From an uncultured Methanosarcinales archaeon (GTDB taxonomy: Archaea > Nanobdellota > Nanobdellia > Woesearchaeales > CAYPCY01): 64,000 bases of DNA. Below, in pieces: positions 1,537 to 44,210 of this stretch (positions are counted from its first letter, which is position 1; each line of letters opens with the position of its first letter). Position numbers and translations under genes: made by a program. The stretch spans positions 106,546 to 170,545 of the forward strand of contig CAYPCY010000001.1 in the NCBI GenBank assembly GCA_964409385.1, read 5' to 3'. A model generated the notes under the pieces. That model ran no database searches, was not told the DNA's origin, and saw only the letters and a list, made by a program, of their open reading frames with translations.

Positions 1537-1634
1537 CGAGTGTTAATGGGCCTGCGGAGATTTGAACTCCGGACCACTCGATTTCTATAAAGAATATATC
1601 AGTCGAGCACTCTACCAGACTGAGCCACAGGCCC
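1537..1634 (-). tRNA. tRNA-Ile (anticodon GAU) with a ~14-nt intron at the canonical 37/38 position
   Basis: Minus-strand reading: GGGCCTG-T-G-GCTC-AGTCTGGTA-GAGT-G-CTCGA-CTGATA[intron]...TCGAG-TGGTC-CGGAG-TTCAAAT-CTCCG-CAGGCCC-A. Clean acceptor, D and T arms. The anticodon stem CTCGA/TCGAG is interrupted by ATTCTTTATAGAAA-like inserted sequence. Confidence 0.7.
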
Positions 1635-1714: not shown

Positions 1715-1827
1715 CGCCTCCGACCAGGATCGAACTGGTGACCTTGCGGTTACTTTCGAACTCGTTTTGAAAGTTCAAAACGAAGTTTTGTTAACAGCCG
1801 CACGCTCTACCGCTAAGCTACGGAGGC
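1715..1827 (-). tRNA. tRNA-Asn (anticodon GUU) with a ~41-nt intron after position 37
   Basis: Minus-strand reading: GCCTCCG-TA-GCTT-AGCGGTA-GAGC-G-TGCGG-CTGTTA[intron ACAAAACTTCG...AAAGTA]A-CCGCA-AGGTC-ACCAG-TTCGATC-CTGGT-CGGAGGC-G. All arms pair, and the intron is at the canonical archaeal position. Confidence 0.8.
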
Positions 1828-4800: not shown

Positions 4801-5482
4801 ATCCTGTTTCATTAACAAATTGGGAGGTATTCATTGTATTATTTAATACTTCAATAAAATTCGCCACTCCCCAATCTGATTTAAAAACATCTATTAAGAA
4901 AAAGAAAAGAACATCATAAACTGCTGTCATTCCAAAAAGCAATATTAACATTAGTATTGAATGTCTAAACTTAAAAGGGTACAATCCAGTTAGTAAAGCT
5001 ATTATGAACAGTAAGATTGGAATTGATACAAACCAAATAAAGAATAAACTAAATGAGAAAAAAGGAGATAATATTCCTAGTAAAGTTCCCATAACAAAGT
5101 TTTTTCTCCAAGAATTATTAAATTCTGTAGTTGGAAATGCTAAATCTACAGTTATTTTTATTGTTAAAGAATAAATAATAATTTTAGGTATTATTATTAT
5201 TGAAAAAGGAAGTATTAATACTTGATAAGAAGGATTTTTTAATAAAACAAAAGCCAAAGCTCCAGCTAGAAATGCAAAGAACATTATGTAAAAATTATCA
5301 TAGAAAAAATCAAAAAATTTACTTTCAGACTTTGCAAGTTCGGACCTATTAATATTACGTAATGCCTTATCAACTTCTTTTTCAGAAAAATTACTTGATA
5401 GTAGAAAACTTCTTGTTTTACTTGGATGAAGACCTTCCTCTAAAGATTTCTTTGCTAAATCTTCACATTCTTTTAAACTCAT
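4799..5482 (-). CDS. hypothetical polytopic membrane protein with a soluble N-terminal region
   Basis: 227-aa ORF. The N-terminal ~65 aa are hydrophilic, followed by 5-6 hydrophobic helices. Confidence 0.5.
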   Translation of the reverse strand: MSLKECEDLAKKSLEEGLHPSKTRSFLLSSNFSEKEVDKALRNINRSELAKSESKFFDFFYDNFYIMFFAFLAGALAFVLLKNPSYQVLILPFSIIIIPKIIIYSLTIKITVDLAFPTTEFNNSWRKNFVMGTLLGILSPFFSFSLFFIWFVSIPILLFIIALLTGLYPFKFRHSILMLILLFGMTAVYDVLFFFLIDVFKSDWGVANFIEVLNNTMNTSQFVNETG

Positions 5483-5547
5483 TAACTTATGTTTAGCAAG
5501 TCCCTATTTAAATTTAACTTTTTGAAAATATCTTTACTAATTTAATA

Positions 5548-5560
5548 GCAAATTATAAAT
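5548..5560 (+). promoter_or_regulatory. candidate BRE/TATA box (gcaaaTTATAAATa) ~28 nt upstream of the pilin-like ATG, implying a leaderless transcript
   Basis: The TATA-like octamer ttataaat at 5553..5560 is spaced as in archaeal promoters relative to the ATG at 5584. The AT-rich background reduces its specificity. Confidence 0.3.
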
Positions 5561-5583
5561 AGTGTTCTTCCAAATTATTAGCT

Positions 5584-6531
5584 ATGAAAAAAGGTCAAGT
5601 TGCTACAGAATTCTTAACTACTTACGGTTGGGCTATAATGCTTATTTTATTAGCAATGAGCGTATTGTTTTATTTTGGTTTCTTTGATATTGATGTTTTT
5701 ATTGAGGATTCTTGTTTTTTTGGTCAGAATTTTGGAGAGTGTGATGAATTTACTAGAGTTGGAGACAAAATTTTTATCAAATTAACTAATAATGGACTCC
5801 AAAACTTGACTTTTCATGCTTGTAATGTTTCTGTTCAGGATTGTGAGACTTCTTGTTCTTTTGATGAAGAAGATTTTGCTATTGAGAGAGTTTGGGAACC
5901 TTATACTCAAAAAGTGTTGAGTTTTTCCTGTCCTGCCTTGTTAGAAGATATAGATTCAAATATTGAATTAACATTCAGTCTTTCTGACAGTGATAGAATA
6001 CACTCTTTAAAAGGAAAACTTATTAGTTCTATGAAAAAACAAGATGATATTTATAACGAGAATGATATTCTAGGATGTACTACTCCTACCGCGTCTAACT
6101 ATGATCCTGAGGCTACTGTTGATGACGGTAGTTGTGAATATTTACCATTTATTAATTCATTCAGCATTAATGATGTTAGTGATCAGTTAGAGTTTTATTT
6201 TCCTGAAGGAACTCCTTTAAATTTTGAATTTGTTCTTTATGATCATTATCCTTCCGAGAATATGGAAGCTTGGTTTACTGGTCCTTTAGCTAATTTAGGA
6301 TCTCTTAATATTCCTAATATATGTATTTCTCATAGCGACTCTCTTAATACTTATTCTTGTGGTGGTGAATTTAATTGCCCAGGTGATGAACCTTGTCAAT
6401 TTACATTAACAATTTCTAACGTTCCTGGCTTGTCAGAAGGAGAATATGAGTATGATATAATGCTTACTCAACAACCTGGTACTACAGAATTTACTGATTT
6501 AGCTTTTAACATTAATTTTTATGACCCTTAG
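5584..6531 (+). CDS. archaeal type IV pilin-like protein with a class III (prepilin-type) signal peptide and a Cys-rich extracellular domain
   Basis: The N-terminus MKKGQVATEFLTTYGWAIMLILLAMSV matches the class III signal peptide pattern (KG-Q-x-x-x-E-F/Y-L followed by a hydrophobic helix). The mature part is Cys-rich and contains a GCTTPTASNYDPEATVDDGSCEY motif. It ends at a single TAG. Confidence 0.7.
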   Translation: MKKGQVATEFLTTYGWAIMLILLAMSVLFYFGFFDIDVFIEDSCFFGQNFGECDEFTRVGDKIFIKLTNNGLQNLTFHACNVSVQDCETSCSFDEEDFAIERVWEPYTQKVLSFSCPALLEDIDSNIELTFSLSDSDRIHSLKGKLISSMKKQDDIYNENDILGCTTPTASNYDPEATVDDGSCEYLPFINSFSINDVSDQLEFYFPEGTPLNFEFVLYDHYPSENMEAWFTGPLANLGSLNIPNICISHSDSLNTYSCGGEFNCPGDEPCQFTLTISNVPGLSEGEYEYDIMLTQQPGTTEFTDLAFNINFYDP

Positions 6532-7350
6532 GGTTGTACTGATTCTTCCGCTTGTAATTATGACCCTGCTGCTGAGATTGATGATAATAGTTGTGAGAGT
6601 ACGGATACTTATTATTTGGATTGGGATGGAGATAGTTTTGGAGATCCTTATGTTGGTGTTGAAAGTTGTGGTTATCCTGACTGTGATGGTCCTGAAAATG
6701 AAATTGGAAATCCAACTTGTTATTCTAATGCTCATGGAGATTGTGATGATACAACTTCATTAATTCATCCTAATATTATTGAAGATGGTTCTTATTGTTT
6801 TGATGATTTAGATAATGATTGTGATGGTTTTATTGATTTTTGCAGTATTAAGTGTGACGAGGATGACCTTCCTCCTGGAACTTCAATTTCTGGTTGTGGA
6901 ATTAAGGAATCTGCTTGTGATGATGGTCTTGATAATGATAATGATGGTAATATTGACTTGTGCGATTCTGACTGTGGTTGTGGATCTGCTATTAAGATAG
7001 GTTGTGAATGTTATAACTGTGATATAGAACCTTACGCTGTTGGTAGTGTTTATTGTTTTGATCCTGGATCTTCAATTAATCTAGAATTTTCTTTAATTAA
7101 TAGTGATACAGGTTCTCCATTAAGTAATTGTAACAGTGTAGAATTTCATGAGAATTTAGGAACTAATAATGTTTATTATAATTTGCTTTCTCCGGGTTGT
7201 ACTACAACTTTAAATCTTGATGAAGCATTAGGAAATCTTGGCTTGCTTGACATTCCAAGATTCAAAATAGACTATGCTTACTATGATTATAGTAGTGAGG
7301 CAACATGTGGTTTTGATATTTACAATACTGGAAATCCTGAATGTACTTAA
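6532..7350 (+). CDS. Cys/Asp-rich repeat protein carrying 'putative metal-binding motif'-type C-x-D-x-D-N-D-C-D-G repeats; same frame as 5584..6531, separated from it only by one TAG
   Basis: Translation directly after the TAG reads GCTDSSACNYDPAAEIDDNSCES (a repeat of the motif in the upstream ORF), then DCDGPENE...DCDDTTSL...DDLDNDCDGFIDFC...CDDGLDNDNDGNIDLCDSDCGCG. There is no ATG start; the ORF track used TTG at 6616. Confidence 0.55.
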   Translation, partial: GCTDSSACNYDPAAEIDDNSCESTDTYYLDWDGDSFGDPYVGVESCGYPDCDGPENEIGNPTCYSNAHGDCDDTTSLIHPNIIEDGSYCFDDLDNDCDGFIDFCSIKCDEDDLPPGTSISGCGIKESACDDGLDNDNDGNIDLCDSDCGCGSAIKIGCECYNCDIEPYAVGSVYCFDPGSSINLEFSLINSDTGSPLSNCNSVEFHENLGTNNVYYNLLSPGCTTTLNLDEALGNLGLLDIPRFKIDYAYYDYSSEATCGFDIYNTGNPECT

Positions 7351-7747: not shown

Positions 7748-8095
7748 ATGAGAGCGACAATAATTCACAATCCTAAATGTGGAACTTCTAGGAAAGTTTT
7801 GGAAATATTAAGGGAAAATAAGATTTATGCTAGTATTATTAATTATTTGGAAGAACCTCTTTCCATGGATGAACTTAAGGGATTATTGTCTAAATTAGAA
7901 ATGTCTGCTGATGATATTGTTAGGAAGAAGGAAAAAGAGGCGTCATTAATTAAGCCTGGCATGTCTGAGAATGAAAAACTTCAAATTATTCACGATAATC
8001 CCATCCTTATTGAAAGGCCTATTGTAATAACGCGTAAGCATGCTAAGATCTGTAGACCTAAAGAACTTGTTCTTGAATTAATCAAACAAGGATAA
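7748..8095 (+). CDS. ArsC/Spx-family protein (arsenate reductase-like thioredoxin-fold)
   Basis: From the internal ATG: MRATIIHNPKCGTSRKVLEILREN...IINYLEEPLS..EL..LLSKL....DIVRKKEKEA......SENEKLQIIHDNPILIERPIVI. This shows the family's N-terminal Cys-x-x-S/T-R motif and the C-terminal LIeRPIV motif. The ORF-track start at 7679 adds an unlikely hydrophobic leader. Confidence 0.65.
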   Translation: MRATIIHNPKCGTSRKVLEILRENKIYASIINYLEEPLSMDELKGLLSKLEMSADDIVRKKEKEASLIKPGMSENEKLQIIHDNPILIERPIVITRKHAKICRPKELVLELIKQG

Positions 8096-8926
8096 TAAAT
8101 CTTTCTTTGAAGATTTTTTTGAATATTCTATATTGCTATTCAATAAGTAATTTTCAATTTCTTCTTTTGAATTTTTAGATGTTGGTTTTATTATTCTTGG
8201 TTTTATAACTTCTGGAGTTTCTAAACTTTTTACATCGTCAAAGTTCACTTTTTCTCTTCCGTTAATAATTGCATTCCTGCAAGAGTCTTCACAATTAGCT
8301 AATACTGCTCTTGGATTTCTGTCAAGATCATAGATTGCTTGTGTCATTTCTTCATTTAATATCTCATGACCTTCAAGTCTTCCTTGAATTAGTTCTACTG
8401 CTTGTTGTGGAGTTAGTTCTCCTAGTTTGTAAGTGTTTTCTTCAACTAAATCTCTTAAGTCTTCAGTTAGTAATACTTCTTTTTTAGAAACTAGTACTAT
8501 TGATTTAAAGTATCCTTGGTCGTACAAGTCTACTATTTTCTCCATTTCGCCAGGTTTTAAGTCTTGAGCTTCATCAAGTAGTAATATTGCATCTCTTGAT
8601 TTTATATTTATTAGTCTTTTGAAGAAGGAGTTTCTTCCGATTAATAATTTATTGAATGGTATTGTTTTTTCTGTAGTATTGCAACTATAATAAATTATTT
8701 TTCCTTCTCCTAAATAATCATTGATTATTGTTTTTAGTGTTGTTGTCTTTCCACTTCCATACTCGCCTTTTAGTAGTATTAACTGTCCTGATTCTATTTT
8801 ATCAAGAATTTCTTGGTTAACTTTTTCTTGGCCTATCATATCAGTAGCTCTTGGCTTCATACTAAATGGATTTTCTTCAAATCCTAATTCCTCATACCAT
8901 GTTTCTTCCGTCATTTTAATTTTCAA
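8078..8926 (-). CDS. ExeA/GspA-like AAA+ ATPase (AAA_22 type)
   Basis: The N-terminus YEELGFEENPFSMKPRATDMIG...ILLKGEYGSGKTTTLKTI reproduces the ExeA signature (hFGL-x-x-x-PF, then a Walker A ~45 aa later). A Walker B-like LLLDEAQDL follows. Confidence 0.6.
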   Translation of the reverse strand: MKIKMTEETWYEELGFEENPFSMKPRATDMIGQEKVNQEILDKIESGQLILLKGEYGSGKTTTLKTIINDYLGEGKIIYYSCNTTEKTIPFNKLLIGRNSFFKRLINIKSRDAILLLDEAQDLKPGEMEKIVDLYDQGYFKSIVLVSKKEVLLTEDLRDLVEENTYKLGELTPQQAVELIQGRLEGHEILNEEMTQAIYDLDRNPRAVLANCEDSCRNAIINGREKVNFDDVKSLETPEVIKPRIIKPTSKNSKEEIENYLLNSNIEYSKKSSKKDLLSLFD

Positions 8927-9791
8927 ATATTGCCTCGCATCCTATGCATTGGTCATTTTCTATTTCCACTTTAGTTCCACATTCTACACAGTAAGTGTCA
9001 CATTTTGGACATAACCATTCTTCCTTTATATTTTCTAGTTTTGTTTTGCAAGCATTACATAATAGGACTCCATTGGGATATTCTACATGTTGCTTGTGCA
9101 AGATCAAATCTAATTCTTTCTTGGATAATTCTTTTCCTTTTGAAATTCTTTTTTCCATATAATTACTTAATTTCATGAAAAAATCTTTTGTTGAATTTGA
9201 TGTTTTGAAAATTTCGCTTAATTCTTTTTCATTTATATGCTCTTCATATTCTGAAAATTTGTCTTTTAAAATTTCTTGTGTTTGTTTAAAGTTCAGTTTG
9301 GGAACTGTTACTATTCTATTTCCTATCCTATCTTTTAAACTTCCAGAAATTTTTGCGTTTTCATAATCATGTGTTGTTAAGACTGCTGATTTTATGTATC
9401 CTTGATCAAAATAGAATTTTATTCTTTCACAGTTTTTTCTTGTTAGTTTATTAACATCATCAAGAAGTAATACCCTGTTTTTCGGAGTATTTCCAGTTAG
9501 TCTTTTTAAAAATCCGTATTTTTTTCTTAGAAGATCTTCAATGTTTAGTCTTTTACTAACATCTGAAGCATTTACATAAATTATTTTTCCTCTGAAATTA
9601 TCTATTATTCCTTTTAGTAATTGTGTCTTTCCAGTTCCTTTATGTCCTTGTAAGACCACTAGACTTCCAGCTTTAACTCTGTAAAGTAAGTCTTCAAATT
9701 CTTTATCAAAGAATTTCGTTTCACTATCACTCCTTAAGGGTTCTAATCCTAAAGGGTTATCAAAAAAGCCTAAATCCTCAAACCACTCCAT
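8916..9791 (-). CDS. ExeA/GspA-like AAA+ ATPase paralogue with a C-terminal double zinc-ribbon
   Basis: MEWFEDLGFFDNPLGLEPL...VVLQGHKGTGKTQLLKGI, then LLLDDVNKL (Walker B). The C-terminus CNACKTK..CPKCDTYCVECGTK...CIGCE gives four CxxC pairs. It overlaps the downstream paralogue by 11 nt. Confidence 0.6.
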   Translation of the reverse strand: MEWFEDLGFFDNPLGLEPLRSDSETKFFDKEFEDLLYRVKAGSLVVLQGHKGTGKTQLLKGIIDNFRGKIIYVNASDVSKRLNIEDLLRKKYGFLKRLTGNTPKNRVLLLDDVNKLTRKNCERIKFYFDQGYIKSAVLTTHDYENAKISGSLKDRIGNRIVTVPKLNFKQTQEILKDKFSEYEEHINEKELSEIFKTSNSTKDFFMKLSNYMEKRISKGKELSKKELDLILHKQHVEYPNGVLLCNACKTKLENIKEEWLCPKCDTYCVECGTKVEIENDQCIGCEAIFEN

Positions 9792-9928
9792 CTTGCAAGT
9801 AAGAATTTACTAGGGATTTTTAAACCTTTTGTTTCTTAAGAGTGGTTTTTTTGTATTATTACTTTAGGATGGAAAGTTTCCAGTTATTCATAACAAGTTT
9901 TTTAAATAATCAACGCCATACTATTTTT

Positions 9929-10060
9929 ATGGAAACAATTACAATTCCTAAAAAACAATTTGATGAACTAAAATCTTCAGAATCAAATATTAATCTCTTA
10001 AAACAATTAAAGGAAAGCTTGAAAGATATTAAAGAAGGAAGAATAAAAAGAGTGAGATAA
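9929..10060 (+). CDS. small hypothetical protein (43 aa from the internal ATG), convergent with the RelE/ParE-like gene
   Basis: METITIPKKQFDELKSSESNINLLKQLKESLKDIKEGRIKRVR. Its stop abuts the toxin's stop. It is not recognisably an antitoxin. Confidence 0.25.
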   Translation: METITIPKKQFDELKSSESNINLLKQLKESLKDIKEGRIKRVR

Positions 10061-10375
10061 TTATCTATTCATTAAATTTTCAAGTTCTTCTTTGAAAAGA
10101 GTTGAAAACATTCTTACATTATTTATTGTGTTTTGTTGATTTTTCTTTTCGCTAATTCCCACCATTATCACTGAGCACAATTTCTCATGTATTAAATAAT
10201 AAATTCTATATTTTCCAAATCTTTTTTCTCTAAAATTTAAAGGTCCTAGAACTTTTCCAGATTTTGGATTTAGTTTTAATTGTAGTTCTATTTTTTCTAT
10301 CCTTTCTCTTAGCTTCTTTTCACATTTCTTGAATTCTTTTTCAAATCTGAATGATCTATAAACTTTAAAAATCAT
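10061..10375 (-). CDS. RelE/ParE-family type II toxin-like protein (no co-directional antitoxin ORF found)
   Basis: ...KKCEKKLRERIEKIELQLKLNPKSGKVLGPL...RFGKYRIYYLIHEKLCSVIMVGISEKKNQ matches the ParE/RelE pattern (l..nP..G..L.g.l....R.G.YRiiY.i.......V.il.i.hRk). Confidence 0.6.
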   Translation of the reverse strand: MIFKVYRSFRFEKEFKKCEKKLRERIEKIELQLKLNPKSGKVLGPLNFREKRFGKYRIYYLIHEKLCSVIMVGISEKKNQQNTINNVRMFSTLFKEELENLMNR

Positions 10376-10458: not shown

Positions 10459-11091
10459 ATGACCGTAATATTAATTTCTGGACCTCAAGCTTCCGGAAAG
10501 GGGACTCAAGCAGAACTTTTGGAGAAAAGACTTGGTTTTAAGCATGTTTCTATAGGTAAAATTTTAAGGGATAAAACTAAAAAAAATGATGTTTTAGGAA
10601 GACAAATTAAGGAATTAATTGATAAGGGCGAATTTGTTCCTAATGAAATAACTAATGAGATTGCATTAGAGTATATTAATAATAATGAGAAGATCATTCT
10701 TGATGGCTATCCTAGAAATAAGGAACAGGCAGAATTCTTGTCTAGAGAGTCAGATATTGATTTGATGATTGTTTTAGAAATTTTTGAGTCTTTAACTATT
10801 CAAAGAATTTCTAACAGGAGGGAATGTCCATCTTGTGGAAATGTTTATAATTTAATCACTAAACCTCCTAAAAATAATAAAACGTGCGATTGCGGGACTA
10901 ATTTGGTTTTAAGAAAGGACGATACACAAGAATATATTAAGAAAAGATTATATTCTTATCATAAAAGAACAGAACCTGTTATTAATATTTTTAAGAAGAG
11001 GAATAAGGTTGTATTCTTTGATGGGAGTAAAGATATTGAAGAAATTTATAAGGATGTTCTTTCTATTTTGAAGAAGAAGGAGCTCATTTAA
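10459..11091 (+). CDS. adk: adenylate kinase (long form with Zn-binding LID)
   Basis: P-loop GPQASGKGTQAELL, AMP-binding region, and LID with CPSCG...CDCG zinc knuckle. Confidence 0.9.
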   Translation: MTVILISGPQASGKGTQAELLEKRLGFKHVSIGKILRDKTKKNDVLGRQIKELIDKGEFVPNEITNEIALEYINNNEKIILDGYPRNKEQAEFLSRESDIDLMIVLEIFESLTIQRISNRRECPSCGNVYNLITKPPKNNKTCDCGTNLVLRKDDTQEYIKKRLYSYHKRTEPVINIFKKRNKVVFFDGSKDIEEIYKDVLSILKKKELI

Positions 11092-14000
11092 AGTTTGCTA
11101 GTTCTTTCTTTATTTTTTCTATTTCTTTATCGTCTTTTATTTTTCTCGCATTCTTTAAATCATTAGCTAAAGAATCAAGTCTTAATTTAGTTATGTCTTT
11201 TGTTTTCTCGGAATTTTTTAATTCTTCAATTTCATCTTCTAATGTTTTTTCTTTTTTAGTTTCTTCCTTTACAACTTTCTTTTCTTCAGTTAACACTTTC
11301 TTTTCTGCAGTCCATCCGTGTACTATTGAAAATTCTGTTTCTAATTGTTCTTTCTGTTCTGGAGTTAGTGTGTCTGTATCTATAGAAACTAATATTATTC
11401 CGTCTTTGGTGCTTATTTTATCTTTCATATGATCTAGTAAGTATATTGCCCTATCAAAACTTGTATTTTTCATTATGAACAAGAATGAATCAAAGAATAC
11501 TACTGGATTGTTTTCTTTTAATATATAGTCTACAAATGCCCTGTATATTTTATCAATATCTGTCGGACTTAATGTTTCTTTTCCTTGCTCTAGTGTTATC
11601 CAATAACTCTTATCTTGAGGAATGTCTTTAAGTAATAATTCAGGATTTTCTCTTGTGAATGAAAGTATTTTTCTTCCTTCCATATTACTCTTTACTAGTT
11701 TTAACGAAATTGTGTTTTTCTTTTCTTCAACAATATATAAATTTCTAGATCTTAATTTTCTTTCTAATAATCTAGGATTGAAAATTTCATGGCCTGTTTT
11801 CTTCAAATATTCTTCTCTTTCTTTCTTAGCCTGTGCTAATTCTTTAATTAATTCTTCATCTTCTACTAGTTCTAATGGTTTTTTCTTGACTGTTTTATTA
11901 ATTCCTTTCCATAATGCTTCAACTCTTGGAAGTACACTTTCTAAATAGATTTGTACCATGTTGAAATTTCCTGATTTTAATTTTTCAGTTGCTAGATTTA
12001 CTTCTATCCTAACATCGAAAACATCTACTTTTTCTTTTTCTAATTCTTCAAGTTGATACTCTAAATCTTCTATTATTGTATTATATTTTGAATAATTTGC
12101 TAATGCTTGATCATCTAACCTTTCTATATTATGTAGTAGTGGTCTGAAGTTTACAAAGTATGCTCTTCCTTTGTTATAATCCGCATTCTCTATCATTCCA
12201 GTTCCAGTTCCTGCTTTTATTAAACTCTGCATTATATCAATTCCATATTTTGTTTTTATTCTTTCTAGATCTCCTTCATCTTTAGTTTTCATTTGTATTT
12301 CTGTACTTATGTTTGCTTTTATTTCTCCTATAAAATCACTTAATACTTGACTTATTAGTACTAGACCAACTCCCCATTTCCTAAATTCTCTCGCTCCCCT
12401 TTCTATTTGTAAGAATCCTGCACCACTACCTCCAAATTTAGGTAGTAGTCTGTGAACTTCGTCATATATCATTAATAGTTTTAGTTCTGGACTTTCTGGT
12501 AGGTTTTCTCTGAAGACTTGTCTTATGGTGTTTGCTACGAATAAGTCTACATCTTTTTGACTTAACTTGTTAATTACAAAAACATGAATTTCTCCTGGCT
12601 TCATGAATTTTTTAATACTTACTTTTTGTCTTGGGTTTTCTACTACATGAACATTACCATTAAATGCTCTTGCTTCATTTCTTTTCATTTGGAATTTATG
12701 GTATAATTTCAGCATTGGTTTATTTTCTGATTTTCTTAAGAATCCTGTCCATTGTGCTGTTGGATCAAATACTATAACTGCAGTATTATGCTTTAGTGCT
12801 TCTTCTGCAATATCTTGTGCGGCTACTGTTTTTCCGCCTCCAGTAGCTCCTGCTACTATAGTGTGTGTTTTCAATTTTTCTAATTCTACAAATGTTCTAA
12901 TACTGGTTTCTGCAACATTTCCTAAGAATGCTACTTTTCCTTCTGGCTTTGGTAATGCACTATAGTCAATTTGTATTTTATACCTTGACTTTTTCCTTTT
13001 CCTATACTCATAAAATTCGAACATTCCAAAGTTTAATCCTAAGAATATTATTATTCCTAGAATCACCCATACTGGAATTATTCCTGCAATCCTATAATTA
13101 TACCAGTAATCAGATACTAATACTGTGGCTAGACTAGTAGCTGTCATGTTAAATCCTGTTCCTGAAGGATAAGTTGCTGTTCCTCTTAATACATACCTTC
13201 CTTTAATTAAATCTTCAGGAATTTTTAATGTCTTTATAACGGAGATTGTTGTCTCTATAGCTATTGCTTCTTCCGCTGCTGCTAAGACTTCAAGAGTAGA
13301 TTGGTCTACAAGTTCAAGCAGCAGCTGAACATCCACTCTCTTGGACATCCCTAGGTTATAGACATCCGCCTGAATTTTCAAGGTTTTTCCGGGGGGAATC
13401 CTATCCTGTAATGGAGTTATTTTCAGATCGAGAAGCTTCTCCCTCAATTCCAAAACCCGAATTTCTACAGGGATTGAATTAACGATTGCATCTGCAAGCA
13501 TTAATACAAGGTCTCCTTGATACATTCTTGGTTTGGTCTCGTAGGGTATTGCTATTCTGATCTCTACGTCTCCTTTTTCCCCAGGCGGGATTTCTATTAT
13601 TTGATTCACTACCGTTATGAAATCAGTGATTTCTCCTGATAGTTGCACAACTAGTGCTGCTGCTTCTTGTAGACCGTTTACTATTCCTACTTTCGTATCT
13701 GTTATTTCACCAGGGTAGAGTTGTCGGGATATCCTTGCGGTATCCACTGTAAACTCACTGGTTTTTTGCATATACTTTTGTAGGAGTTCTTCTATTGCTG
13801 TGAGCGTTAAATTTCCCATGTCTGCGACTTGGGTTGAAGTTGAAGCTGTTGAAGATGTTGATACTAATGTTAGAACTTGTGTTACATTTTGGAATGCAGC
13901 ACAATCTTCTGGACTATTTTGGAAACTTTCTCCAAGACTTATTGTACATATTCCGTCTCCTATTACAAATCCTGCCGCTGCATGTTCTGTTAGTACATAT

Positions 14001-17000
14001 GCTGAGAATCCTGTTGTGTTTGCAGTGATTTTATTATTGGTTTGGTCTAATGTTGTATTTATTGAAGTCCATCCTGATTGACAAGCATCATCTATTGATG
14101 ACCAGTTTGTACATTTTGCAACTACTAGTCTTGAAGGATCGTTAACTAGTGAAGTGTCATAATCGAATTCTATACTTATATTATTGGTTAAACTAATATT
14201 TCCTGCTATTCCTGCATGGTTTATTCCTGTTCCTGCTATTGAGAATGCTGTAGTGTTTAGTTTTTCTAGTATGAAATTTTCATTTAATTGTGAAGCATTT
14301 ACATTTATGAAATTCACTATGAAATTGTTGAAGTTGAAACTTGTTTTTGAGAATGTCCTGTCTGGAATTGTTGCGGTATAATCACCGTCAGAATCTAAGG
14401 TTATGTTTGTTCCTTTAGTATCTCCAGTCCATCTGTAAAGGGTTAATTCTGCATTTGATGAAGTTCCATTAAAGTCTTTTACACTTCCTGTTATACTTCT
14501 TGTATTGAAGACTTCAAATAATTCTGATGTGTTTCTTGTATTTCCTAAACTGTCTACTAAATTGTAGCTTATGTTATAATCGTTTTCTGTTGTTATTGTT
14601 AGTGTATTTGTTAGTAGACTTCCAGATACTGAATTTGTTACTTCCCTTTCAGTATATGGAGATACTGTCTCGTAAACTTTTGCATTTGTTGATGATCCTA
14701 TTCCTGTCTCGTCTGTTAAGTAGGTTTTTAGCGTTATTGATCCTGGCGTGAATGAGTCTGTATAGTTTACTATTGTTGGTCCAAAAACGTCAAGGTATGT
14801 TACTGTACTATAATCGTAAGCGTGACTAGTGTCATATACTGCTTTTAATGTGAAGTTTTTAGTTAAATCTCCTGTTGTTATTGTTGGCGCGGTGCATTGT
14901 ACCGTTTCTGAAGTTCCTGATGTTACTTGGCAAGTACTTCCGTCAATGTATACTTTGAAACTTTCCAAGGTTCCACTTCCTTCTGTTGCAGTGGTTATGT
15001 TTATTGTATCTCCTGATTTTATTCCTGTGGATGGTGAGATAGTTAATATTTTAGTGTGTGAAGTAACATTAATGTATGCTGCGAAGTTTTTATCATAACT
15101 CAAGTTTATTGCGTAAGTGTAAAAATTTTTTGTGTCTGGTGCTGTATAATTTATGCTTATTAGGTTGGTAGTATTACTTGATACTGTTGTATTAGTTGGT
15201 AATTCTAGGTTTGTTGTTATGTTAAGGAATAATTCTGTATTTCCAATATTTGTTATGTTTAGATATCCTATAACTCCTTGAACTTGACTTCCTACAGTTA
15301 CTCTATCATTCGTTAATGATGCATTGTATGATTTGTCTTCTGGTACTGTTACGGTTAGTAAGACTTGTTGGTCTGCATCGTTGCTTGTTATTTTTAATGA
15401 TCCTATGTATGTTCCTGCAGGGTAATGTTTTGGCACTGTAATATTTACATCCATGTATCTTGTTGATCCTGCTGGTATTTGTGTGTAGTAGATAGTGTCT
15501 ATTGTGAAATTATTACATACTGTTCCTGAAACACATGTTGCTAATACTCCAACAAGTGGAAATGTTCCAGTACTTTGTACTGTTAATTGTTTTGAGACTG
15601 TTTGTGAATGATTTATTGTGTATGTTAAAGTTGTAGTGTCTAGTGTTAATTCTGCAAGGCTTGATTCTGGCTGTTGTGCTAGTACGAATGATCTATTTCC
15701 GTTTGCGAAAGTGTCAAATGTTGATGTTATTCTTTTGTTCACCTTGTCTATTGTTGTTGTTAGTGCGTTCCAGTCTTGTAAACAGTTTTTGCCTGTTACA
15801 TTCCATGAATTACACTGGTATATTCTTAGGTCGTCTTCTATTGCTATATCGCTCATGAATGAGTTGTATTCTTTTATTACTGTTCCATTACTTGAGAAAT
15901 TATTTTCGAATGATATTCCTGTTATTGATCCTTGTAGTTGTCCTGCTGTTTCACTTCCTAATAAAGTATCTACTGTTAGAAAATTTGATGGTACTTTTCT
16001 AAAGTCTGCCTCGTTTATTGTAAAGTTAAATCCTTCTATTTGTATTTTTGTGATGTATTGTCTTTTTGGAATTGTGAAATTATAATGTCCTGTGGAGTTT
16101 GTTGAATTTTCTAGATAGAAGTTTTTTACAGTATTATTGATTGAAAAATTTGCTAGTAGTGGATTGTTGTTTTGGTCTATTAATTGTCCTTGGAATGTCC
16201 CGTTTTGTCTAACTTCAAAATATCCAGTTCCTGTTCCTGTATTATTTTCTGAATCTGTCGCGTATACTGTTACTTGGAATAGTCCTACTCCATCGTATAC
16301 TGTGGATGCTATTGTTCCTGTATAAATATCAGTTCCTGCTGCTGATAAGTCATCATTATGTGTTCCTCCCCCAAATAATTCTACACTGAAGTTTACTGTG
16401 GTTATTGCATTATTATCTGTTGCATTTACTGTAATGTTAATGTCTGTTCCTGAATCAACATCTGTTAGGTTTATTAGGTTTACTACTGGAACTGTTACAT
16501 CTTTGTAGAATACTGCATTTGTTGTTTCTTTAGTTACTGTAACGTCCGATCCTGAAATGGTATAATTAGCTATTATCTTTAGTGTGTGGTTTACTGCGTC
16601 TGTTGTTGATGGCGCGTAACATTCTAGAGTTGTATTGCTTGTAGTATCGTCAGTAGTGAATATTGTGCATTCAGTATTGTTTATGTATGCCTTATAAGTC
16701 GTATTTGTTGAAATATGATTTGTGTCTGTCCATGTTAGTTTTACTGTTGTATTTATTTGATCGCCTGAAACTACTTTTTCAGGAGCTTCTATTTTTAGAA
16801 TGTTTAGTATTAGTTTTAAGACTCTGAAATTGAAGTTTATTGTTTCATTAACTCCTGTTTCTGTATTATTCACAAATATTGTTCCATTGTAGAGTGTATT
16901 ATCATCTGGAGTTGTATAGTTTAGTTGTATACTTCTTGATTCTTGTTTTTGTATTGTTAATGAAGTGTTTAGATTGGTTGTTATTTGAGATACGTTTCCT

Positions 17001-20000
17001 GAAATATTAGTTGTGAAGTTTAATTCAGTATTTCCTAAATTGTTAATTATTAAATCTGTTATTGTTCCTGTTTCATTTGCTTGTCTGGAAACATTTAATT
17101 CATTAGTTGATAAATTCCATGAATTGTCTGTTAGCACATTTGCTGATGAACTTTCTGTCTTGTCATTAACATTATTTGCTCCTGTGAAGTTTATGTTGTA
17201 GGAGTAACTTCCTGGAGTTTGCCCTAGTGTTGTATTAAATCTTACGAATATTGTTTGGGTTTGTCCTTTTGTTATTTCTGTTAATGATGTTGTGAAGTCT
17301 AGACTGTTTGAGTAGACAGTATTATTTTTTGATAGTTCTATTGTTGTATTTTCTGGTGGTGAATCTACAGTTATTAATAATTGAGTATTATCATTTCCTA
17401 ATGCTGTTATTGTAAAGTTTGTAATGTTTAATTGTCCGTGAGTTACATTATATACTGTTGAGAAGTTGTTTATTGTGTAGTAATGGTTTTCTTCAATTAG
17501 TAGTGTTCCTGTGGTTGATGATTCCGAACCATTAGTTCCGTCAGTATTCGTAAAGTTTGCAATGAATCTTACTCCGTTAGTGTATAGTCCAACACTCTTT
17601 TTTGGAATTTCTATTGTTAAGTTTGTTTGTTTTGTTGCTCCTACACTAATATTCCCTAGGAAATTTCCTGTCACATTCCAGTCTTCAATAGTTCCTGTTA
17701 GATTAACATTATAAGCTGTTGCATATCCTGAATTTGTAATATTTACTGGGAATGTTATGTTCTCTCCCCATAAGTTAGTTACATTGTTTGCATTAACTTG
17801 TGATGATGCAAAGCTTAATGTTGTGTTTCCATGAACCATGAAGTATTCTGTGGTATTACCATTCTTTCCTGAAGTATCGTATACTTGGAAGTATACACTA
17901 TGATTTCCTGTCTTGTTTGTTTCATAGGTTAGATTGAATAATTCTGCATCTTCATATCCTGATGATTCCGGCCAGTTTACAAATTGTCCATAATAATTTG
18001 TTCCGTTAATTGTCCAGTTTCTTTCTGTTTCATTAACATTCACATCATCTTGGACTATTGCTTCAAAAGTTATATTCTTGCCTAGTTCAACATTACTTGT
18101 TTCTACCCCATTAACTAGTTTTTTGAAGCTAGTAATTACTGGTTCAGTATCTGTAACGTTGAAGAACATGAATGCAATATTTGAGGATGGAGATGCTGTA
18201 TTGTTTGAAATGTTTATTTGAACTCCTGATTCGTAATTCGATATATATCCATTAGGGTCTAAAACCCATACTTTTAGATTATAAGTTGAATTTTTATCTA
18301 CATAAACACTTGTTGGATTATATAATTCTAAAGATTCAGTATGATTTTCAGTAATACAATTAATAGAACTACATGAGTCCAAACCAGGAATATTATCATA
18401 TGAAATTGTGAAATTTAAAGGAATATTACCAATATTTTTTATTGTTAGATTTGCTAAGTTTCCTTCTTGATTTAGATTGAATACTTTTGATTGATTATAT
18501 GCTGGTGTGAAATACCATGTGGAGTTTGTAGGTACTTCTATTGATATATTTACTATTTGTGAATCTACATTATCAGTACTTACATTAATAATGCTCGAAT
18601 AATTTCCTGGACTTAAGAATTCTGGCAATGTAATATTTATTGGTATTACTTGCTTATTATTTTCTGTCAGGTTAAATATTGAATTGTTAAAACTTACCCA
18701 TGATTCGTTCAGTGTTTGTTCAATAAATGTTGTGTTCACATTTACTAATTTTGCATTTCCAACACTACTAATATTCATTAAATACTCAATGCTTGAGTTT
18801 CTTGATTGGACTGCTGAAATATTATGTGTTGTCATTAATGGATTAATTATTATTGTTATGTTTATGCTATCATTAAGTCCTTCAGTTGTTGTTATGTTAA
18901 TAAAGCCAGTATAAGTTCCATTAGTGAAATTTGTTACTGTAACATTAACTTCTAAGTCTGCGGCAAATCCGTCTTGTAATGGGTCCCATTCATTAAGGGT
19001 GGGATTCCAAGATGTAAAAGAACTGTTGAACTTAAACCAGGAACTATTAATTTCAGTAACATTTAGTTTTACATGATTTAAATCTTTATTTCCTGTACTG
19101 TTTACAATATAATTGAATATTTTGCTTGAACTAATATTAGTATTATGTAATAATGTGTGATTGTCTAGTTCCATTACTGGATTTCCAGTTATTGTTAGTG
19201 AAGAAGTTGTTATTATGTAAGCTTCAGTAGTGTCATTATTAGTCCAGTTAGCCCCCCATGTGAAAGTGTAGGAGAATACTTGAGCAGAATCACTTATTGT
19301 AATATTCATTCTAACAGTACAATTTTTATTAGGATATACGATTGAATCACAATTATCAAGTCTTTGTACAGAATCAATAATATTAGGAGTGTCTGAATCA
19401 TATATTAACGAATCATGCATTAATCCAAAACCAGTATTGTTTAATGTTGCATTAACTATGTAATTATAAGTACTTCCTGAAGAATAATCTGTTATTGTAA
19501 CGTCAGGAACAATTAATTCTGCTGTTGTTACAGCATCGTAAATTGTTAAGTTTACATTATTGCTTACTGTTGTATTTCTTGTATCATTTGCTGTGAAGTT
19601 TACTAGTCTTGTTCCGTAAAAGTTTGTGTCTGGTGTTATTGTTATTACTTTTGTAATATTATTTATGTTATAGCTTAAGTTAGTTGCGGGTGTTATAGTA
19701 TAATTAATATCATCCTCGTCCAAGTCTGAGAAATAATCTGATAGGGTGAGTGTTAAATCATTATTTTCAAACCAGGATTGGTTTGGTATTGTAGTATCTT
19801 GACTTGGTGGAGTGTTTAATACTGTAATATTCTGTTCTCTTATTACTGAAATGTTTTCTGTATCATTAGCGTATGTTCTTACTCTTATTGTATCATGAGC
19901 GTCTGTTATTTGAATAGTGTAATTGTTTCTTGAATAATCTGATCCAGTTCCTGTTATGTAAAGATTATCGATTGTGAATCCGTCTACTGTAGTATCTCCA

Positions 20001-23000
20001 GTAATTGCTGCATCATCATATTTGGTTATTGCCCAACCGTATGCTTTACCATCTCCGCCGCATTGATTATTTGCATTTTGTGAGATATTATATGTTTTGT
20101 AATACCAAACTCCATTATTTGAGGCTGATATATCTATATTTTCGACTAGTTTGTATTTATTATCACTGCATTTTACAAATACTCCGTCACAATCAGTAAT
20201 ATTGTTTATATTATCGTATGAAGCAGTGCATGAGTTTGATTCTTCTCCATGATCTTTTATATAAAAACTTAATTTAATATCATTATAGTCACTTATTGAA
20301 TTATTATTCCAGTAAAGAATATTATGATGATACTCATTAGGAGTACCAGCCATGTCCATTCTTAATTGGTAATTTCCTTTGAAAGGTTCTCCACAATATT
20401 TACCACCTGACTGACAACTTTCATTATCTACAATACCTACAACACCTGTATAATTAGATAAATTGCTAAATTGTGAATTCATCACTCCAGATTCAAATCC
20501 AGTACTGAATATTACATTCAACTCTTCAGAATCATTCAGATTATAAAACTTGAAAATGAAGTTGAAACTATCCCCATCTGCATCTGTAGTGTTTGCCGAA
20601 GCATTCAGTGTTTGTAATACGTAAATTGGTTCTGTCAGGTTTAATGTTGGCTGTTCTGGTGGTTTGTTCAGTATTGTTATTGTTTCATTCATCCAATCTC
20701 CCGAATAAGTATCGTTTGCCATGCATGAAAATGTCCAGTTTTGATACTTTTTGGCAATGTTTGCAGTTAGATTCTGAACATTAATTTCAACTGCTGTCGA
20801 GAATGAACTTCTACTTCCTGAACTGTAAGTTACTGATTCATTATACCATTTCCAATTATAAGTTATCAAATCACTATCTGGATCTGCACTCGTATTACAA
20901 TAACCTAATAAAATATCATCAGTATATGCTGTTGTTGGAGTTATTCTTACAGTTGTAACGTTTGGAATGTCTAACCATTTGAAACTTGTTGAGTTTTTCC
21001 AATAGCTCTCTACTGTAGTATTTGCATTACATGAGAAAGTCCAATTTTTGTGTATTGAAGAATCCGTAGTTACATTATTAATATTAACTTCTATTCCTTC
21101 AGTGTATGAACTTGTTGTTCCTGACTCGTTAAGAACACCATCCGCATACCATTTCCAAGAGTAGGATATGGGATTTCCTTCTGGTTCTGTTGCGTTACAG
21201 TATCCCTTAAGAATTTTTTGAGAATAAGTGGTTGGTATTATTTCTACTGTTCTAACTATTGGGAATGATGTGTTAAAGAAAGAACCCGCATCTCCTTCTT
21301 CCGCATTTCCAGATGCTACATATCCTCCAGCAGTATCAATAGTTCCTGTAAAACTATAATTATTTGAATAAGAAATCAGTATTCTTCCTCCTGCCCCTCC
21401 TCCTCCATCAAAACTTGTAGAACCACTAGCTCCTCCCTTAACACTAATAAGTCCAGCGCCCGTAATTAAACTAGTCTTAATACTTATTCCGCCACCACTT
21501 CCTCCGCCACCATAAGTTCCCAAAGAACTCCCACCACCGCTACAAGTAGTACTACTAAGATACGATGAACCTCCACCTATAGAAGTTATATTTCCTGTTA
21601 AATTTAGAGTATTTTTAACTTCTAATATTAATAAACCCCCTCCATCACCACCATCACCACTATTCTCGTCATTACAAGTTCCAAAACAAGATGATGCTCC
21701 TCCACTTCCTAAGAAAGTAACATTAGTTTCTGAACCGTAAGGTTCTCCCCTGTATGAGGTGGGACAACTCCATCTATTTCCTGAAAAATTTCCATATTCA
21801 CATCTTCCTCCAAACCCTCCAAAACCACCTCCTGACCCTCCTGAACACCTGCTGGGTAAACTATATTGTTCTCCTCCTCCATCATCAGATCCATTAAGCA
21901 CTCCTCTCCCATCATCCTCAATAGTACCTCCATAGTATCCTTTCCCATCAATATTTATTTCTCCTGAAGAAGTAATTGTAAGATTTTCTGCAGTAATATC
22001 TAACCAGTATGTCTTATTTCCATCTTTTGCTTCATTAATTGATAATCCATCATTTGAAGAATGAGTTAAACTTCCTGTTATTGTCAAGTCTTGTAGAACT
22101 TCTAATTTTCCATTATAAGTTATACTTCCATTCACTATTGCATCATTATTAACTATTAATGTTCCATTATTATTTACAGTTCCTGTAGATAGATTTAACG
22201 AATTAGTTGTTATAGTATTTCCTTCCTGAATATTTAATGTTCCACTACTTAATAATATACTATTAAGAGTAACATTGTCAGAGAGTGTTTCAGTAAGTCC
22301 ATCTTCAATTACCAGATTAGGCGACCTAAAACTCCCTTTAAGTCCATCACCCGCACTGCCCGGTCCTGTTCCTCCTGAAACATTTGTTTGCCCCGTAAAA
22401 CCCGAAATATTAACATCAAGATTAACTTTAATTCTTCCACCTCCACCACCACCACCATTATGACTACCTTCTATATCTTCACCCCCATCCCCTCCTACTG
22501 AAGTAATATTTCCTATACCTCCAAGAATACTGGTATTAATTGAAATTGTCCCTCCAGACCCACCTCCAGAACCATCAAACAGGTAGGAAGAAGTTCCTGT
22601 TAAACCTTCAGTTCCATCTGCTAAAATCTGTCCATTAATAGTTAAATTGTCAAGAATATTTAATATTACTAATCCTCCTCCAATTCCAGTATTATTTTCG
22701 CTTTGATTTCTTCCATCTCCAGAGCCACCTCCAGAACCTAAATCTGCAGGATTGGAAACACTTCCATAAGTAATCCCCTCATTATTTTCATCATAATATC
22801 CTTCTCCTCCTTGTCCACCATAACCACCACCACCACCACCTTCACCTATTGATTCTCCACCACCACCAAGACCATAACCAGTTCCATTATCTTCTGAATG
22901 ATCCCCTCCAGAATATCCCTTTCCAGAAACATTAATTAAACCTCCAGATTCAATTGTTAAGTTAGTAGCATTAATTTCTAGCCAATAATTTTTCACACTA

Positions 23001-44195: not shown

Positions 44196-44210
44196 TCACT
44201 TCTTTAATTT

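What the first reader, a model, noticed from the sequence alone, without database searches (positions are those of the whole stretch)
5584..7350. A class III signal-peptide pilin-like gene and a Cys/Asp-rich metal-binding-repeat ORF sit in one reading frame, separated only by a single TAG, and a sequence motif repeats across the stop
5584..6531 and 6532..7350 are in the same frame, and together they span 1767 nt (589 codons) with one TAG at 6529..6531. The downstream ORF has no ATG; the ORF track had to use TTG at 6616. Its first residues after the stop (GCTDSSACNYDPAAEIDDNSCES) repeat a motif from the upstream protein (GCTTPTASNYDPEATVDDGSCEY). That pattern is expected if both parts belong to one protein. 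TAG is a genuine stop elsewhere in this window (leuS, rtcB). The options are therefore a recent nonsense mutation, a sequencing error, or programmed readthrough yielding a pilin with a C-terminal Ca/metal-binding repeat domain. The motif is of the CxDxDNDCDG 'putative metal-binding motif' type better known from myxobacterial surface proteins.
Basis: seen in the sequence. Interest (0 to 1): 0.6.

Follow-up and report, generated by a model that had tools for sequence, protein, structure and literature searches.

The report
Nonsense allele splitting archaeal surface-protein gene
The two ORFs are one 588-codon gene for a pilin-like surface protein of an uncultivated archaeon, cut short in this strain by a single T-to-G change (Tyr TAT to stop TAG), while near-identical strains in other samples still carry the intact gene, so this is an ordinary natural nonsense mutation and not a recoding event.

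Summary
Window 5584..7350 is one frame of 589 codons with a single TAG at 6529-6531, and a 23-residue Cys-bounded module occurs on both sides of it.

Other public contigs from the same population settle the cause. They are 99.8-100% identical to the window over up to 18 kb. Three of them (L004, L005, L014) carry an uninterrupted 588-aa gene of exactly the same length, with TAT (Tyr) at codon 316. Six others, from several samples, carry TAG as the window does. A more distant syntenic orthologue (P0001, 606 aa) is also continuous and also has TAT there.

TAG is a normal stop in this genome; it ends leuS and rtcB. No in-frame ATG or GTG follows the stop, and no stable RNA structure lies 3' of it.

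So this is a real, recent nonsense polymorphism. It is not a sequencing error, and nothing points to programmed readthrough. The stop lies between the protein's middle domain and its second linker module. The TAG allele should therefore give a 315-aa product that keeps the signal peptide and two beta-rich domains but loses the Cys/Asp-rich and C-terminal domains. The 244-aa TTG "gene" is a gene-caller artefact.

Interest is low.

The parts
5584..7350 (+). The complete ancestral gene: 588 sense codons plus TAA. It encodes a pilin-like, class-III-signal-peptide surface protein and is interrupted in this strain at codon 316.
   Evidence: One frame with a single internal stop. Alleles of identical length (1767 nt) without the stop occur in L004, L005 and L014. 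Continuous 606-aa orthologue P0001.
5584..6531 (+). The CDS actually terminated in this strain: a 315-aa truncated product ending ...NINFYDP, then TAG.
   Evidence: The identical 315-aa product is called in other assemblies.
5584..5682 (+). Class-III (prepilin-type) signal peptide: MKKG, predicted cleavage before Q5, Glu at mature position 5, then an uncharged hydrophobic helix to about residue 33.
   Evidence: Pattern scan: the only ORF in the window that matches. AF2 predicts a helix at residues 3-30 with pLDDT 62-79. Cleavage itself is inferred, not shown.
6073..6141 (+). Cys-bounded linker module 1, GCTTPTASNYDPEATVDDGSCEY (res 164-186).
   Evidence: The same module occurs in tandem arrays in many marine Bacteroidota proteins.
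6529..6531 (+). The premature stop TAG (codon 316). The polymorphic base is 6531: G here, T (TAT, Tyr) in intact alleles and in the orthologue.
6532..6600 (+). Cys-bounded linker module 2, GCTDSSACNYDPAAEIDDNSCES (res 317-339). Not translated in this allele.
   Evidence: This is the only confidently modelled part of the C-terminal half (pLDDT 87-91).
6601..7350 (+). Cys/Asp-rich repeat region and C-terminal domain, followed by TAA. The whole post-stop part (6532-7347, 272 residues) has 24 Cys and 40 Asp. The sub-threshold MopE-like hit lies at 6739-6837. Untranslated remnant in this allele.
   Evidence: Composition. PF11617 at 22.1 bits, below the cut-off of 27. About 80% identical to the C-terminal half of paralogue A in L001.
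6616..7350 (+). The 244-aa TTG-start ORF reported by ORF lists and gene callers. An artefact of the split, not an independent gene.
   Evidence: No ATG or GTG in frame, and no Shine-Dalgarno-like sequence upstream of the TTG. The same bases are internal coding sequence in the intact alleles.
6331..6340 (+). Two further strain-level nonsynonymous polymorphisms: codon 250 H/Y at 6331 and codon 253 S/P at 6340.
7244..7244 (+). Nonsynonymous polymorphism at codon 554: L in all TAG alleles that cover this site (L002 does not) and in L014, W in L004 and L005. One TAG contig (L095) also has Y531F at 7175.

Best explanation
5584..7350 is a single gene for a secreted, pilin-like surface protein of an uncultivated, AT-rich (31% GC) archaeon. 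The full-length protein (588 aa) has six parts. [quoted passage not shown] Next come a beta-rich domain, a short disulphide-type linker module, and a second beta-rich domain. After those come a second linker module, a Cys/Asp-rich (MopE-like) repeat region, and a C-terminal domain. In the lineage sampled by this window, a single T-to-G transversion at 6531 changed Tyr316 (TAT) to TAG. Translation therefore stops after Pro315, between the second beta-rich domain and the second linker module. The product keeps the anchor and the two proximal domains and lacks the distal Cys/Asp-rich and C-terminal domains. The downstream 819 nt are a very young untranslated remnant, and the 244-aa TTG ORF is not a gene. 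The stop allele and the intact allele coexist in the natural population. SHOWN: one gene, a one-base change, the allele present in several assemblies, intact alleles and an intact orthologue, and TAG used as a normal stop. INFERRED: signal-peptide processing, surface or adhesive role, and that the truncated product is made and stable.
For: (1) L004 (180-kb scaffold), L005 and L014 are 99.9% identical to the window over 6.8-18.4 kb. They carry a gene of identical length, 1767 nt, with TAT at codon 316 and no internal stop. (2) The syntenic orthologue P0001 (606 aa, about 55% identity over the full length) reads FYDP-Y-GCT with codon TAT. Its downstream neighbours are the same: a 98-aa gene, ArsC, two AAA_14 genes, ParE, adenylate kinase, and the giant ORF. 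(3) TAG recurs in L002, L003, L012, L013 and L095, from distinct ENA and JGI samples, and on two haplotype backgrounds (H-S-stop-L and Y-P-stop-L). Every pair of variable sites shows only three gametes, as expected for a real mutational genealogy. (4) TAG terminates leuS, rtcB and a third gene, with alignments ending at the last residue. (5) No ATG or GTG follows the stop and there is no SD before TTG 6616. (6) The RNA 3' of the stop folds no better than shuffles, z = +1.0. (7) The downstream part shows almost no decay: no frameshifts, no extra stops, and one extra missense in L095. That fits a recent event.
Against: No read-level, transcript or protein data were available, so low-level natural TAG suppression cannot be excluded. 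Only 64 kb of the genome is visible, so a suppressor tRNA or pyl genes elsewhere cannot be ruled out. Some ENA and JGI contigs may be re-assemblies of the same physical samples, so the number of truly independent observations of TAG is smaller than seven, though it is at least several distinct sample accessions. The surface or adhesin function is unsupported by any curated family hit, and the structure models were poor (pLDDT 38 and 43).
Confidence: 0.9

Rival explanations
1. Programmed or leaky TAG readthrough. This would include pyrrolysine or a suppressor tRNA. TAG-allele cells would then still make some full-length 588-aa protein, giving two isoforms from one gene.
For: The downstream 272 codons remain a perfectly open frame. 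The stop allele is found in several samples, so it is not rapidly purged. Two further missense changes accumulated upstream on the stop background.
Against: The stop is not conserved: sister strains and the orthologue have TAT. The open frame is fully explained by how recent the mutation is, since the alleles are 99.8% identical. TAG is a normal stop for leuS and rtcB. No stable 3' structure was found. No CUA tRNA or pyl genes occur in the window.
Confidence: 0.05
2. Sequencing or assembly error. On this view the real base at 6531 is T and the TAG is an artefact of this assembly.
For: It is a single-base difference. The repeated linker modules do break assemblies near here: L002 ends 37 nt after the TAG, and L001 starts inside a module.
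Against: TAG is the consensus in six other contigs produced by different pipelines (ENA/SPIRE-style, JGI) from different sample accessions, and on two distinct haplotypes. TAT is the consensus in three others. A random error would not recur in this way. A systematic error should also appear on the W554 background, and it does not.
Confidence: 0.02
3. Two genuinely separate genes. A pilin-like gene would be followed by an independently translated Cys/Asp-rich protein starting at TTG 6616.
For: Gene callers in several assemblies output a 244-aa product from TTG 6616.
Against: The product would lack any signal peptide although it is a Cys-rich, extracellular-type domain. There is no ATG or GTG, no SD and no intergenic spacer. 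The same bases are internal codons of a continuous gene in sister strains and in the orthologue.
Confidence: 0.02

Closest known systems
Archaeal class-III-signal-peptide (type IV pilin-like) surface proteins, e.g. Epd-type pilins of Methanococcus and the pilin-like substrate-binding proteins of Sulfolobales
   Same: Short basic N-terminus, a K-G|Q cleavage-type motif, Glu at mature position 5, then a hydrophobic helix of about 25 residues followed by globular beta-rich domains. As with the Sulfolobales binding proteins, the gene is not next to a filament-assembly cluster.
   Different: No curated pilin model matches. The extracellular part is much larger and modular: two linker modules, Cys/Asp-rich repeats and an extra C-terminal domain. 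Processing and filament incorporation are untested.
PF11617 'Cu-binding_MopE / putative metal-binding motif' repeat proteins (MopE of Methylococcus; many myxobacterial and Bacteroidota surface proteins)
   Same: CxDxxDNDCDG-type Cys/Asp-rich repeats in a secreted protein. There is a weak hit in the window protein and a precomputed weak hit in orthologue P0001.
   Different: The score is below Pfam's gathering threshold (22.1 against 27 bits). Only one stretch matches. Metal binding is not shown.
Tandem 'GCTDPxACNYDPxAxxDDGSCE' modules of marine Bacteroidota T9SS/CHU_C-type surface proteins
   Same: The two linker modules flanking the middle domain are 55-91% identical to these modules over about 23-30 residues.
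   Different: There are two isolated copies (three in P0001) acting as inter-domain linkers in an archaeal pilin-like protein, not long tandem arrays in a bacterial T9SS substrate. The module has no Pfam or NCBIfam model.
Pyrrolysine (TAG) recoding in Methanosarcinales and related archaea
   Same: An in-frame TAG inside an archaeal gene whose downstream frame is open.
   Different: The TAG is not conserved (Tyr in alleles and orthologue). TAG is an ordinary stop in neighbouring genes. No pyl genes or CUA tRNA were seen.
Segregating loss-of-function or truncating alleles in microbial cell-surface genes (ordinary population-level nonsense polymorphism)
   Same: A one-base nonsense change, coexisting with the intact allele at 99.8% identity, in a surface-protein gene that holds most of the strain-level differences in the region.
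   Different: Nothing essential differs. The only notable detail is that the stop falls between the middle domain and the second linker module.

Membership tests
Archaeal class-III signal peptide / type IV pilin-like proteins | Basic residues, then a [KR]-G-[Q/A...] prepilin-peptidase motif, within the first ~15 residues | tested here: met
   MKKG|QVATEF; the only ORF in the window that matches the pattern. The pattern itself is recalled from the FlaFind literature; that paper could not be read.
Archaeal class-III signal peptide / type IV pilin-like proteins | Uncharged hydrophobic alpha-helix of about 20 or more residues directly after the cleavage site | tested here: met
   Residues about 10-33 carry no charges. 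AF2 predicts a helix at 3-30, the only moderately confident part of the model (pLDDT 62-79).
Archaeal class-III signal peptide / type IV pilin-like proteins | Match to a curated pilin / class-III N-terminal profile | tested here: not met
   No Pfam or NCBIfam hit at E <= 1 for residues 1-315. Such profiles are known to be insensitive for short N-terminal signals.
Archaeal class-III signal peptide / type IV pilin-like proteins | Cleavage by PibD/EppA and assembly into, or anchoring by, a type IV filament machinery | not testable with these tools
   No peptidase, ATPase or platform gene is present in the 64-kb window. The rest of the genome was not available.
PF11617 Cu-binding_MopE (putative metal-binding motif) | Score at or above Pfam's gathering threshold (27 bits) | tested here: not met
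   22.1 bits, E = 1.8e-4, one stretch at residues 70-102 of the C-terminal part.
PF11617 Cu-binding_MopE (putative metal-binding motif) | Binds a metal ion | not testable with these tools
   Only composition is available: 24 Cys and 40 Asp in 272 residues.
Programmed TAG readthrough / pyrrolysine recoding | In-frame TAG conserved among alleles and orthologues | tested here: not met
   TAT in L004, L005, L014 and P0001.
Programmed TAG readthrough / pyrrolysine recoding | TAG avoided or ambiguous as a terminator in other genes | tested here: not met
   TAG ends leuS, rtcB and a 337-aa ORF, each with back-up stops within 4-14 codons. Alignments reach the last residue.
Programmed TAG readthrough / pyrrolysine recoding | Suppressor tRNA (CUA) or pylTSBCD in the genome | tested here: inconclusive
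   None in the window: three tRNAs, read by eye as Thr-UGU, Asn-GUU and Ile-GAU, and no Pyl families. Only 64 kb was seen.
Programmed TAG readthrough / pyrrolysine recoding | Stimulatory RNA structure just 3' of the stop | tested here: not met
   For 6526-6625 the MFE is -15.9 kcal/mol against a shuffle mean of -18.75, z = +1.0.
Natural nonsense polymorphism (nascent pseudogene or truncation allele) | One-base difference from an intact allele in the same population | tested here: met
   6531 G against T. The alleles differ at 1-4 of 1767 nt.
Natural nonsense polymorphism (nascent pseudogene or truncation allele) | Stop allele reproducible in independent assemblies or samples | tested here: met
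   L002, L003, L012, L013 and L095 plus the window. The independence of some ENA and JGI samples could not be verified.
Natural nonsense polymorphism (nascent pseudogene or truncation allele) | Downstream segment has no start signals of its own | tested here: met
   No ATG or GTG in frame; TTG 6616 has no SD.

The most novel reading that the evidence does not exclude
The TAG allele may not be mere decay. It could be a selectively maintained functional variant. The stop falls between the middle domain and the second linker module, so it would trim the distal Cys/Asp-rich and C-terminal domains from a pilin-like surface protein and leave a well-formed, anchored 315-aa product. Such a variant could help escape a virus, or change partner or host-cell attachment in a DPANN-like archaeon. 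Weak natural TAG suppression might still supply a little full-length protein. Three observations are compatible with this: the allele appears in several samples, two more missense changes arose in the retained part on the stop background, and strain-level differences are concentrated in this gene (4 of 6, P about 0.009). None of these demonstrates it.
Probability: 0.12. Interest if true: 0.4.

Novelty: already known. Interest (0 to 1): 0.12.

Why it matters
This matters mainly for annotation. The 315-aa and 244-aa entries that several public assemblies list as two hypothetical proteins are one gene, and the second entry should not be treated as a protein family member with a TTG start. It also removes a candidate stop-codon recoding event in an uncultivated archaeon. 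A minor positive result is that it documents a naturally segregating truncation in the most variable gene of an otherwise nearly clonal archaeal population. The gene encodes a pilin-like surface protein. It could serve as a strain marker, or as a starting point for studying surface-protein turnover in such archaea.

Tried and rejected
1. I scanned metagenome contigs and genome contigs with the intact 588-aa protein. Patterns matched, but no relative was confirmed. The population contigs came instead from exact-protein look-ups.

2. AlphaFold2 models of the 315-aa part (aligned with P0001) and of the 272-aa part (7-row alignment) had mean pLDDT 38.0 and 42.6. That is too poor for fold searches, so none were run, and the domain folds remain unknown.

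3. Pfam and NCBIfam gave no family for the N-terminal part and only sub-threshold hits for the C-terminal part.

4. I considered that the TAG might mark a recombination or mis-assembly junction. Relative to L001's tandem paralogues, the window gene switches at the stop from 'B-like' to 'A-like'. I rejected this as the cause of the stop, because the intact alleles have exactly the same mosaic with TAT. The switch point is simply the domain boundary.

5. I considered that the giant ORF is also broken in sister strains, since it is split in L004 and L006. I rejected this: the breaks are scaffold N runs at 18099-18107.

6. I tested whether the all-nonsynonymous pattern (5 of 5) shows selection. 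It is not significant, because 80% of random changes in this gene are nonsynonymous (P = 0.33).

7. A literature search for the sample and run accessions found nothing. The FlaFind paper could not be read. The sampling environment is therefore unverified.

8. A LeuRS scan of GTDB representatives gave only 38-46% identity matches. The organism can be placed no more precisely than 'archaeon, DPANN-like'.
Full report
**Observation.** Window 5584-7350 (+ strand) translates as 589 codons with one internal stop, TAG at 6529-6531, and a terminal TAA. After the TAG there is no in-frame ATG or GTG. The first possible start is TTG at 6616, which explains the 244-aa ORF in the mechanical ORF list. The two modules GCTTPTASNYDPEATVDDGSCEY (res 164-186) and GCTDSSACNYDPAAEIDDNSCES (res 317-339) share 14 of 23 residues.

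**Genome context.**
- The window is 30.8% GC.
- Rfam finds two intron-containing tRNAs at 1547-1634 and 1715-1827 (minus strand), in addition to tRNA-Thr.
- The genes present are archaeal housekeeping genes: RtcB with archease, the two-subunit PheRS, SerRS, CysRS, a class-I synthetase, RFC-like AAA+, and glycogen metabolism.
- LeuRS finds nothing closer than 38-46% identity among GTDB species representatives. The best matches are uncultured archaeal, Aenigmatarchaeota and Altiarchaeota MAGs.
- The organism is thus an uncultivated, probably DPANN-like archaeon without a close reference.
- Stop usage among 46 long ORFs is TAA 31, TGA 11, TAG 4. The three other TAG stops are followed by further in-frame stops within 4-14 codons.
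- LeuRS alignments and the RtcB Pfam match both run to the residue just before TAG. TAG is therefore an ordinary terminator here.

**Orthologue.**
- A search with the fused translation (stop written as X) returned one full-length relative, P0001: 606 aa, E = 2e-163, 100% query coverage.
- It lies on a 90-kb contig (L001) and is followed by the same genes as in the window: a 98-aa minus-strand gene, ArsC, two AAA_14 ATPases, a ParE-like toxin, adenylate kinase and a giant ORF of about 5,000 aa.
- P0001 is continuous and reads ...NFYDP-Y-GCT... with codon TAT where the window has TAG.

**Population evidence (decisive).** Exact-protein look-ups recovered contigs of the same population, 99.8-100% identical to the window over 0.8-18.4 kb.
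- *Intact allele.* L004 (ENA SAMN10231923, 180-kb scaffold), L005 (JGI 3300008625) and L014 (Logan SRR8062318) carry a gene of exactly 1767 nt. It has TAT at codon 316 and no internal stop, giving a 588-aa product.
- *Stop allele.* L002 (SAMN10231901), L003 (SAMN10231914), L012 (JGI 3300009008), L013 (JGI 3300007511) and L095 (SAMN10231922) carry TAG, as the window does.

Haplotypes at codons 250 / 253 / 316 / 554:

| Contigs | 250 | 253 | 316 | 554 |
|---|---|---|---|---|
| window, L002 (ends before codon 554), L095 | H | S | stop | L |
| L003, L012, L013 | Y | P | stop | L |
| L014 | Y | P | Y | L |
| L004, L005 | Y | P | Y | W |

- Each pair of sites shows only three gametes, so the data fit a simple mutational genealogy: W554L first, then Y316stop, then two further changes upstream of the stop.
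- The outgroup P0001 has H, P, Y and W at these four positions. Tyr316 is therefore clearly ancestral.
- The stop allele is not a sequencing error, because it recurs across samples, pipelines and haplotypes.
- It is not an ancient or conserved feature either.
- One caveat applies: some ENA and JGI entries may be re-assemblies of the same physical sample. I could not check this.

**Tests of the rival readings.**
- *Programmed readthrough or recoding.* The TAG is not conserved. TAG is a normal stop in neighbouring genes. The 100 nt from 6526 fold less stably than shuffled controls, z = +1.0. No CUA tRNA or Pyl genes occur in the window, although only 64 kb is visible.
- *Two separate genes.* There is no ATG or GTG, no Shine-Dalgarno-like sequence before TTG 6616, and no spacer. 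The same bases are internal codons in the intact alleles.
- *Recombination or mis-assembly junction.* L001 has a second, tandem paralogue ('A', L001:1-1365, cut by the contig end) upstream of P0001 ('B').
  - Window residues 165-315 are about 78% identical to B and about 30% to A.
  - Residues 317-588 are about 80% identical to A and about 50% to B.
  - The switch falls at the stop.
  - The intact alleles have exactly the same mosaic with TAT, however. The mosaic therefore predates the stop and is unrelated to it. It reflects either module exchange at the linker or asymmetric divergence after duplication in the L001 lineage.

**What the gene encodes.**
- The N-terminus is MKKG|QVATEF followed by an uncharged hydrophobic stretch to about residue 33. 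This fits a class-III (prepilin-type) signal peptide, with Gln at +1 and Glu at +5. It is the only such ORF in the window.
- AF2 models residues 3-30 as a helix, the only moderately confident part of that model.
- Reviews describe such proteins as being cut N-terminally of the hydrophobic domain by PibD/EppA and then anchored in, or assembled into, type-IV-filament structures. They also note that many class-III proteins with large C-terminal domains are not encoded next to filament machinery. That matches the absence of ATPase or platform genes here.
- The remainder is beta-rich and acidic. The part after the stop has 24 Cys and 40 Asp in 272 residues, with one sub-threshold PF11617 (MopE-type) match at 22.1 bits against a cut-off of 27.
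- The 23-residue GCT...NYDP...DDGSCE module is widespread as tandem arrays in marine Bacteroidota T9SS/CHU_C proteins. It has no Pfam or NCBIfam model.
- Structure prediction failed for both halves (pLDDT 38 and 43), so the folds and the ligand are unknown.
- A surface or adhesive role is an inference from the architecture only.

**Mechanistic reading.**
- In TAG strains, translation ends after Pro315, the last residue before the second linker module. The expected product keeps the signal and anchor helix, the first beta-rich domain, linker 1 and the middle domain. It lacks linker 2, the Cys/Asp-rich repeats and the C-terminal domain.
- The downstream 819 nt show no frameshifts or extra stops and only one extra missense change (Y531F in L095). 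The event is therefore recent.
- Within the roughly 10 kb shared by the contigs, this gene holds most of the strain-level differences: 4 of 6 against L005 (binomial P = 0.009) and 3 of 3 against L014 (P = 0.017). These two tests are not independent.
- All five variable sites are nonsynonymous. That is not significant, because 80% of random changes in this gene would be nonsynonymous (P = 0.33).
- The gene is thus a local hot spot of variation, as is common for surface proteins, but selection on the stop allele is not demonstrated.

**Comparison with known systems and novelty.**
- The phenomenon is an ordinary segregating nonsense mutation in a cell-surface gene.
- The protein works like, and by its N-terminal features probably belongs to, the broad class of archaeal class-III-signal-peptide pilin-like proteins. 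Curated profiles do not recognise it, and processing is untested.
- It is not a demonstrated member of the MopE family, because the score is below threshold.
- It does not meet the criteria for pyrrolysine use or programmed readthrough.

**Verdict.** The readthrough option is unsupported and the sequencing-error option is very unlikely. Interest is low (0.12). The main practical consequence is to correct the annotation: one gene, not two hypothetical proteins. The most novel reading not excluded is an adaptively maintained domain-trimming allele, perhaps with weak readthrough (probability about 0.12).

Noticed in passing
L001:1-1365 and L001:1411-3231, compared with window 5584-7350: The related archaeon in L001 has two tandem paralogues (A, cut by the contig end, and B = P0001) where the window has one gene. 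The window gene is about 78% identical to B (about 30% to A) upstream of codon 316, and about 80% identical to A (about 50% to B) downstream of it. This points to module exchange at the linker module, or to asymmetric divergence after duplication. About 18 nt after the window's TAA also resemble A's 3' flank (14 of 18, by eye).
   Followed up: partly
window 11084-26740 (-): A giant 5218-aa ORF overlaps the adenylate kinase gene by 8 nt. Precomputed Pfam hits on its counterparts include Laminin_G_3, NPCBM_assoc, DUF87/HerA, ResIII and DUF835. Its apparent splitting into pieces of 2319 aa, 251 aa and 2545 aa in L004 and L006 is caused by scaffold N runs at 18099-18107, not by mutations.
   Followed up: partly
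window 1547-1634 (-) and 1715-1827 (-): Two tRNA genes with introns (88 and 113 nt long) were found by Rfam but missed by ARAGORN. Read by eye, the anticodons are GAU (Ile) and GUU (Asn). This supports an archaeal origin, together with RtcB and archease at 37180-39100.
   Followed up: partly
window 6331, 6340, 6531, 7244 (and 7175 in L095): The pilin-like gene holds most of the strain-level differences in an otherwise nearly clonal population (99.9% identity): 4 of 6 differences against L005 and 3 of 3 against L014. All of them change the protein. The only shared variants elsewhere are two synonymous sites in the giant ORF (12059, 12064).
   Followed up: yes
L002 (= window 5084-6568); L001 start: Short contigs break inside or next to the GCT...NYDP...DDGSCE modules. 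L002 ends 37 nt after the TAG and L001 begins inside a module, so these repeated modules seem to fragment assemblies. L002 also has three mismatches (5109, 5143, 5238) within its first 155 nt. These are probably contig-end errors or variants in the 227-aa minus-strand gene.
   Followed up: no
window 6073-6141 and 6532-6600; proteins P0002-P0120: The 23-residue Cys-bounded module is shared at 55-91% identity with hundreds of marine Bacteroidota (T9SS/CHU_C) proteins and some Parcubacteria proteins, often in long tandem arrays (for example P0011 and P0013). It has no Pfam or NCBIfam model. It is an unnamed, widely exchanged extracellular linker module. AF2 models it confidently (pLDDT 87-91).
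   Followed up: partly
window 41593-48767 (-): A compact glycogen or alpha-glucan gene cluster: GDE_C amylo-1,6-glucosidase-like, GalT/HIT, glycogen synthase (PF05693), GH57 and a GT4/GT5 starch-synthase-like gene. It sits in a small-genome-looking archaeon.
   Followed up: no
window 8078-10375 (-): Two adjacent AAA_14/nSTAND-type ATPase genes (282 and 291 aa) lie next to a ParE-toxin-like 104-aa gene, between the surface-protein gene and adenylate kinase. The arrangement is conserved in L001. It may be a defence or toxin-antitoxin island.
   Followed up: no
window 5553-5560: A TTATAAAT box lies about 24-31 nt upstream of the ATG at 5584, and no Shine-Dalgarno-like sequence lies between them. 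This would fit an archaeal TATA box driving a leaderless or short-leader mRNA. It was read from the sequence only.
   Followed up: no
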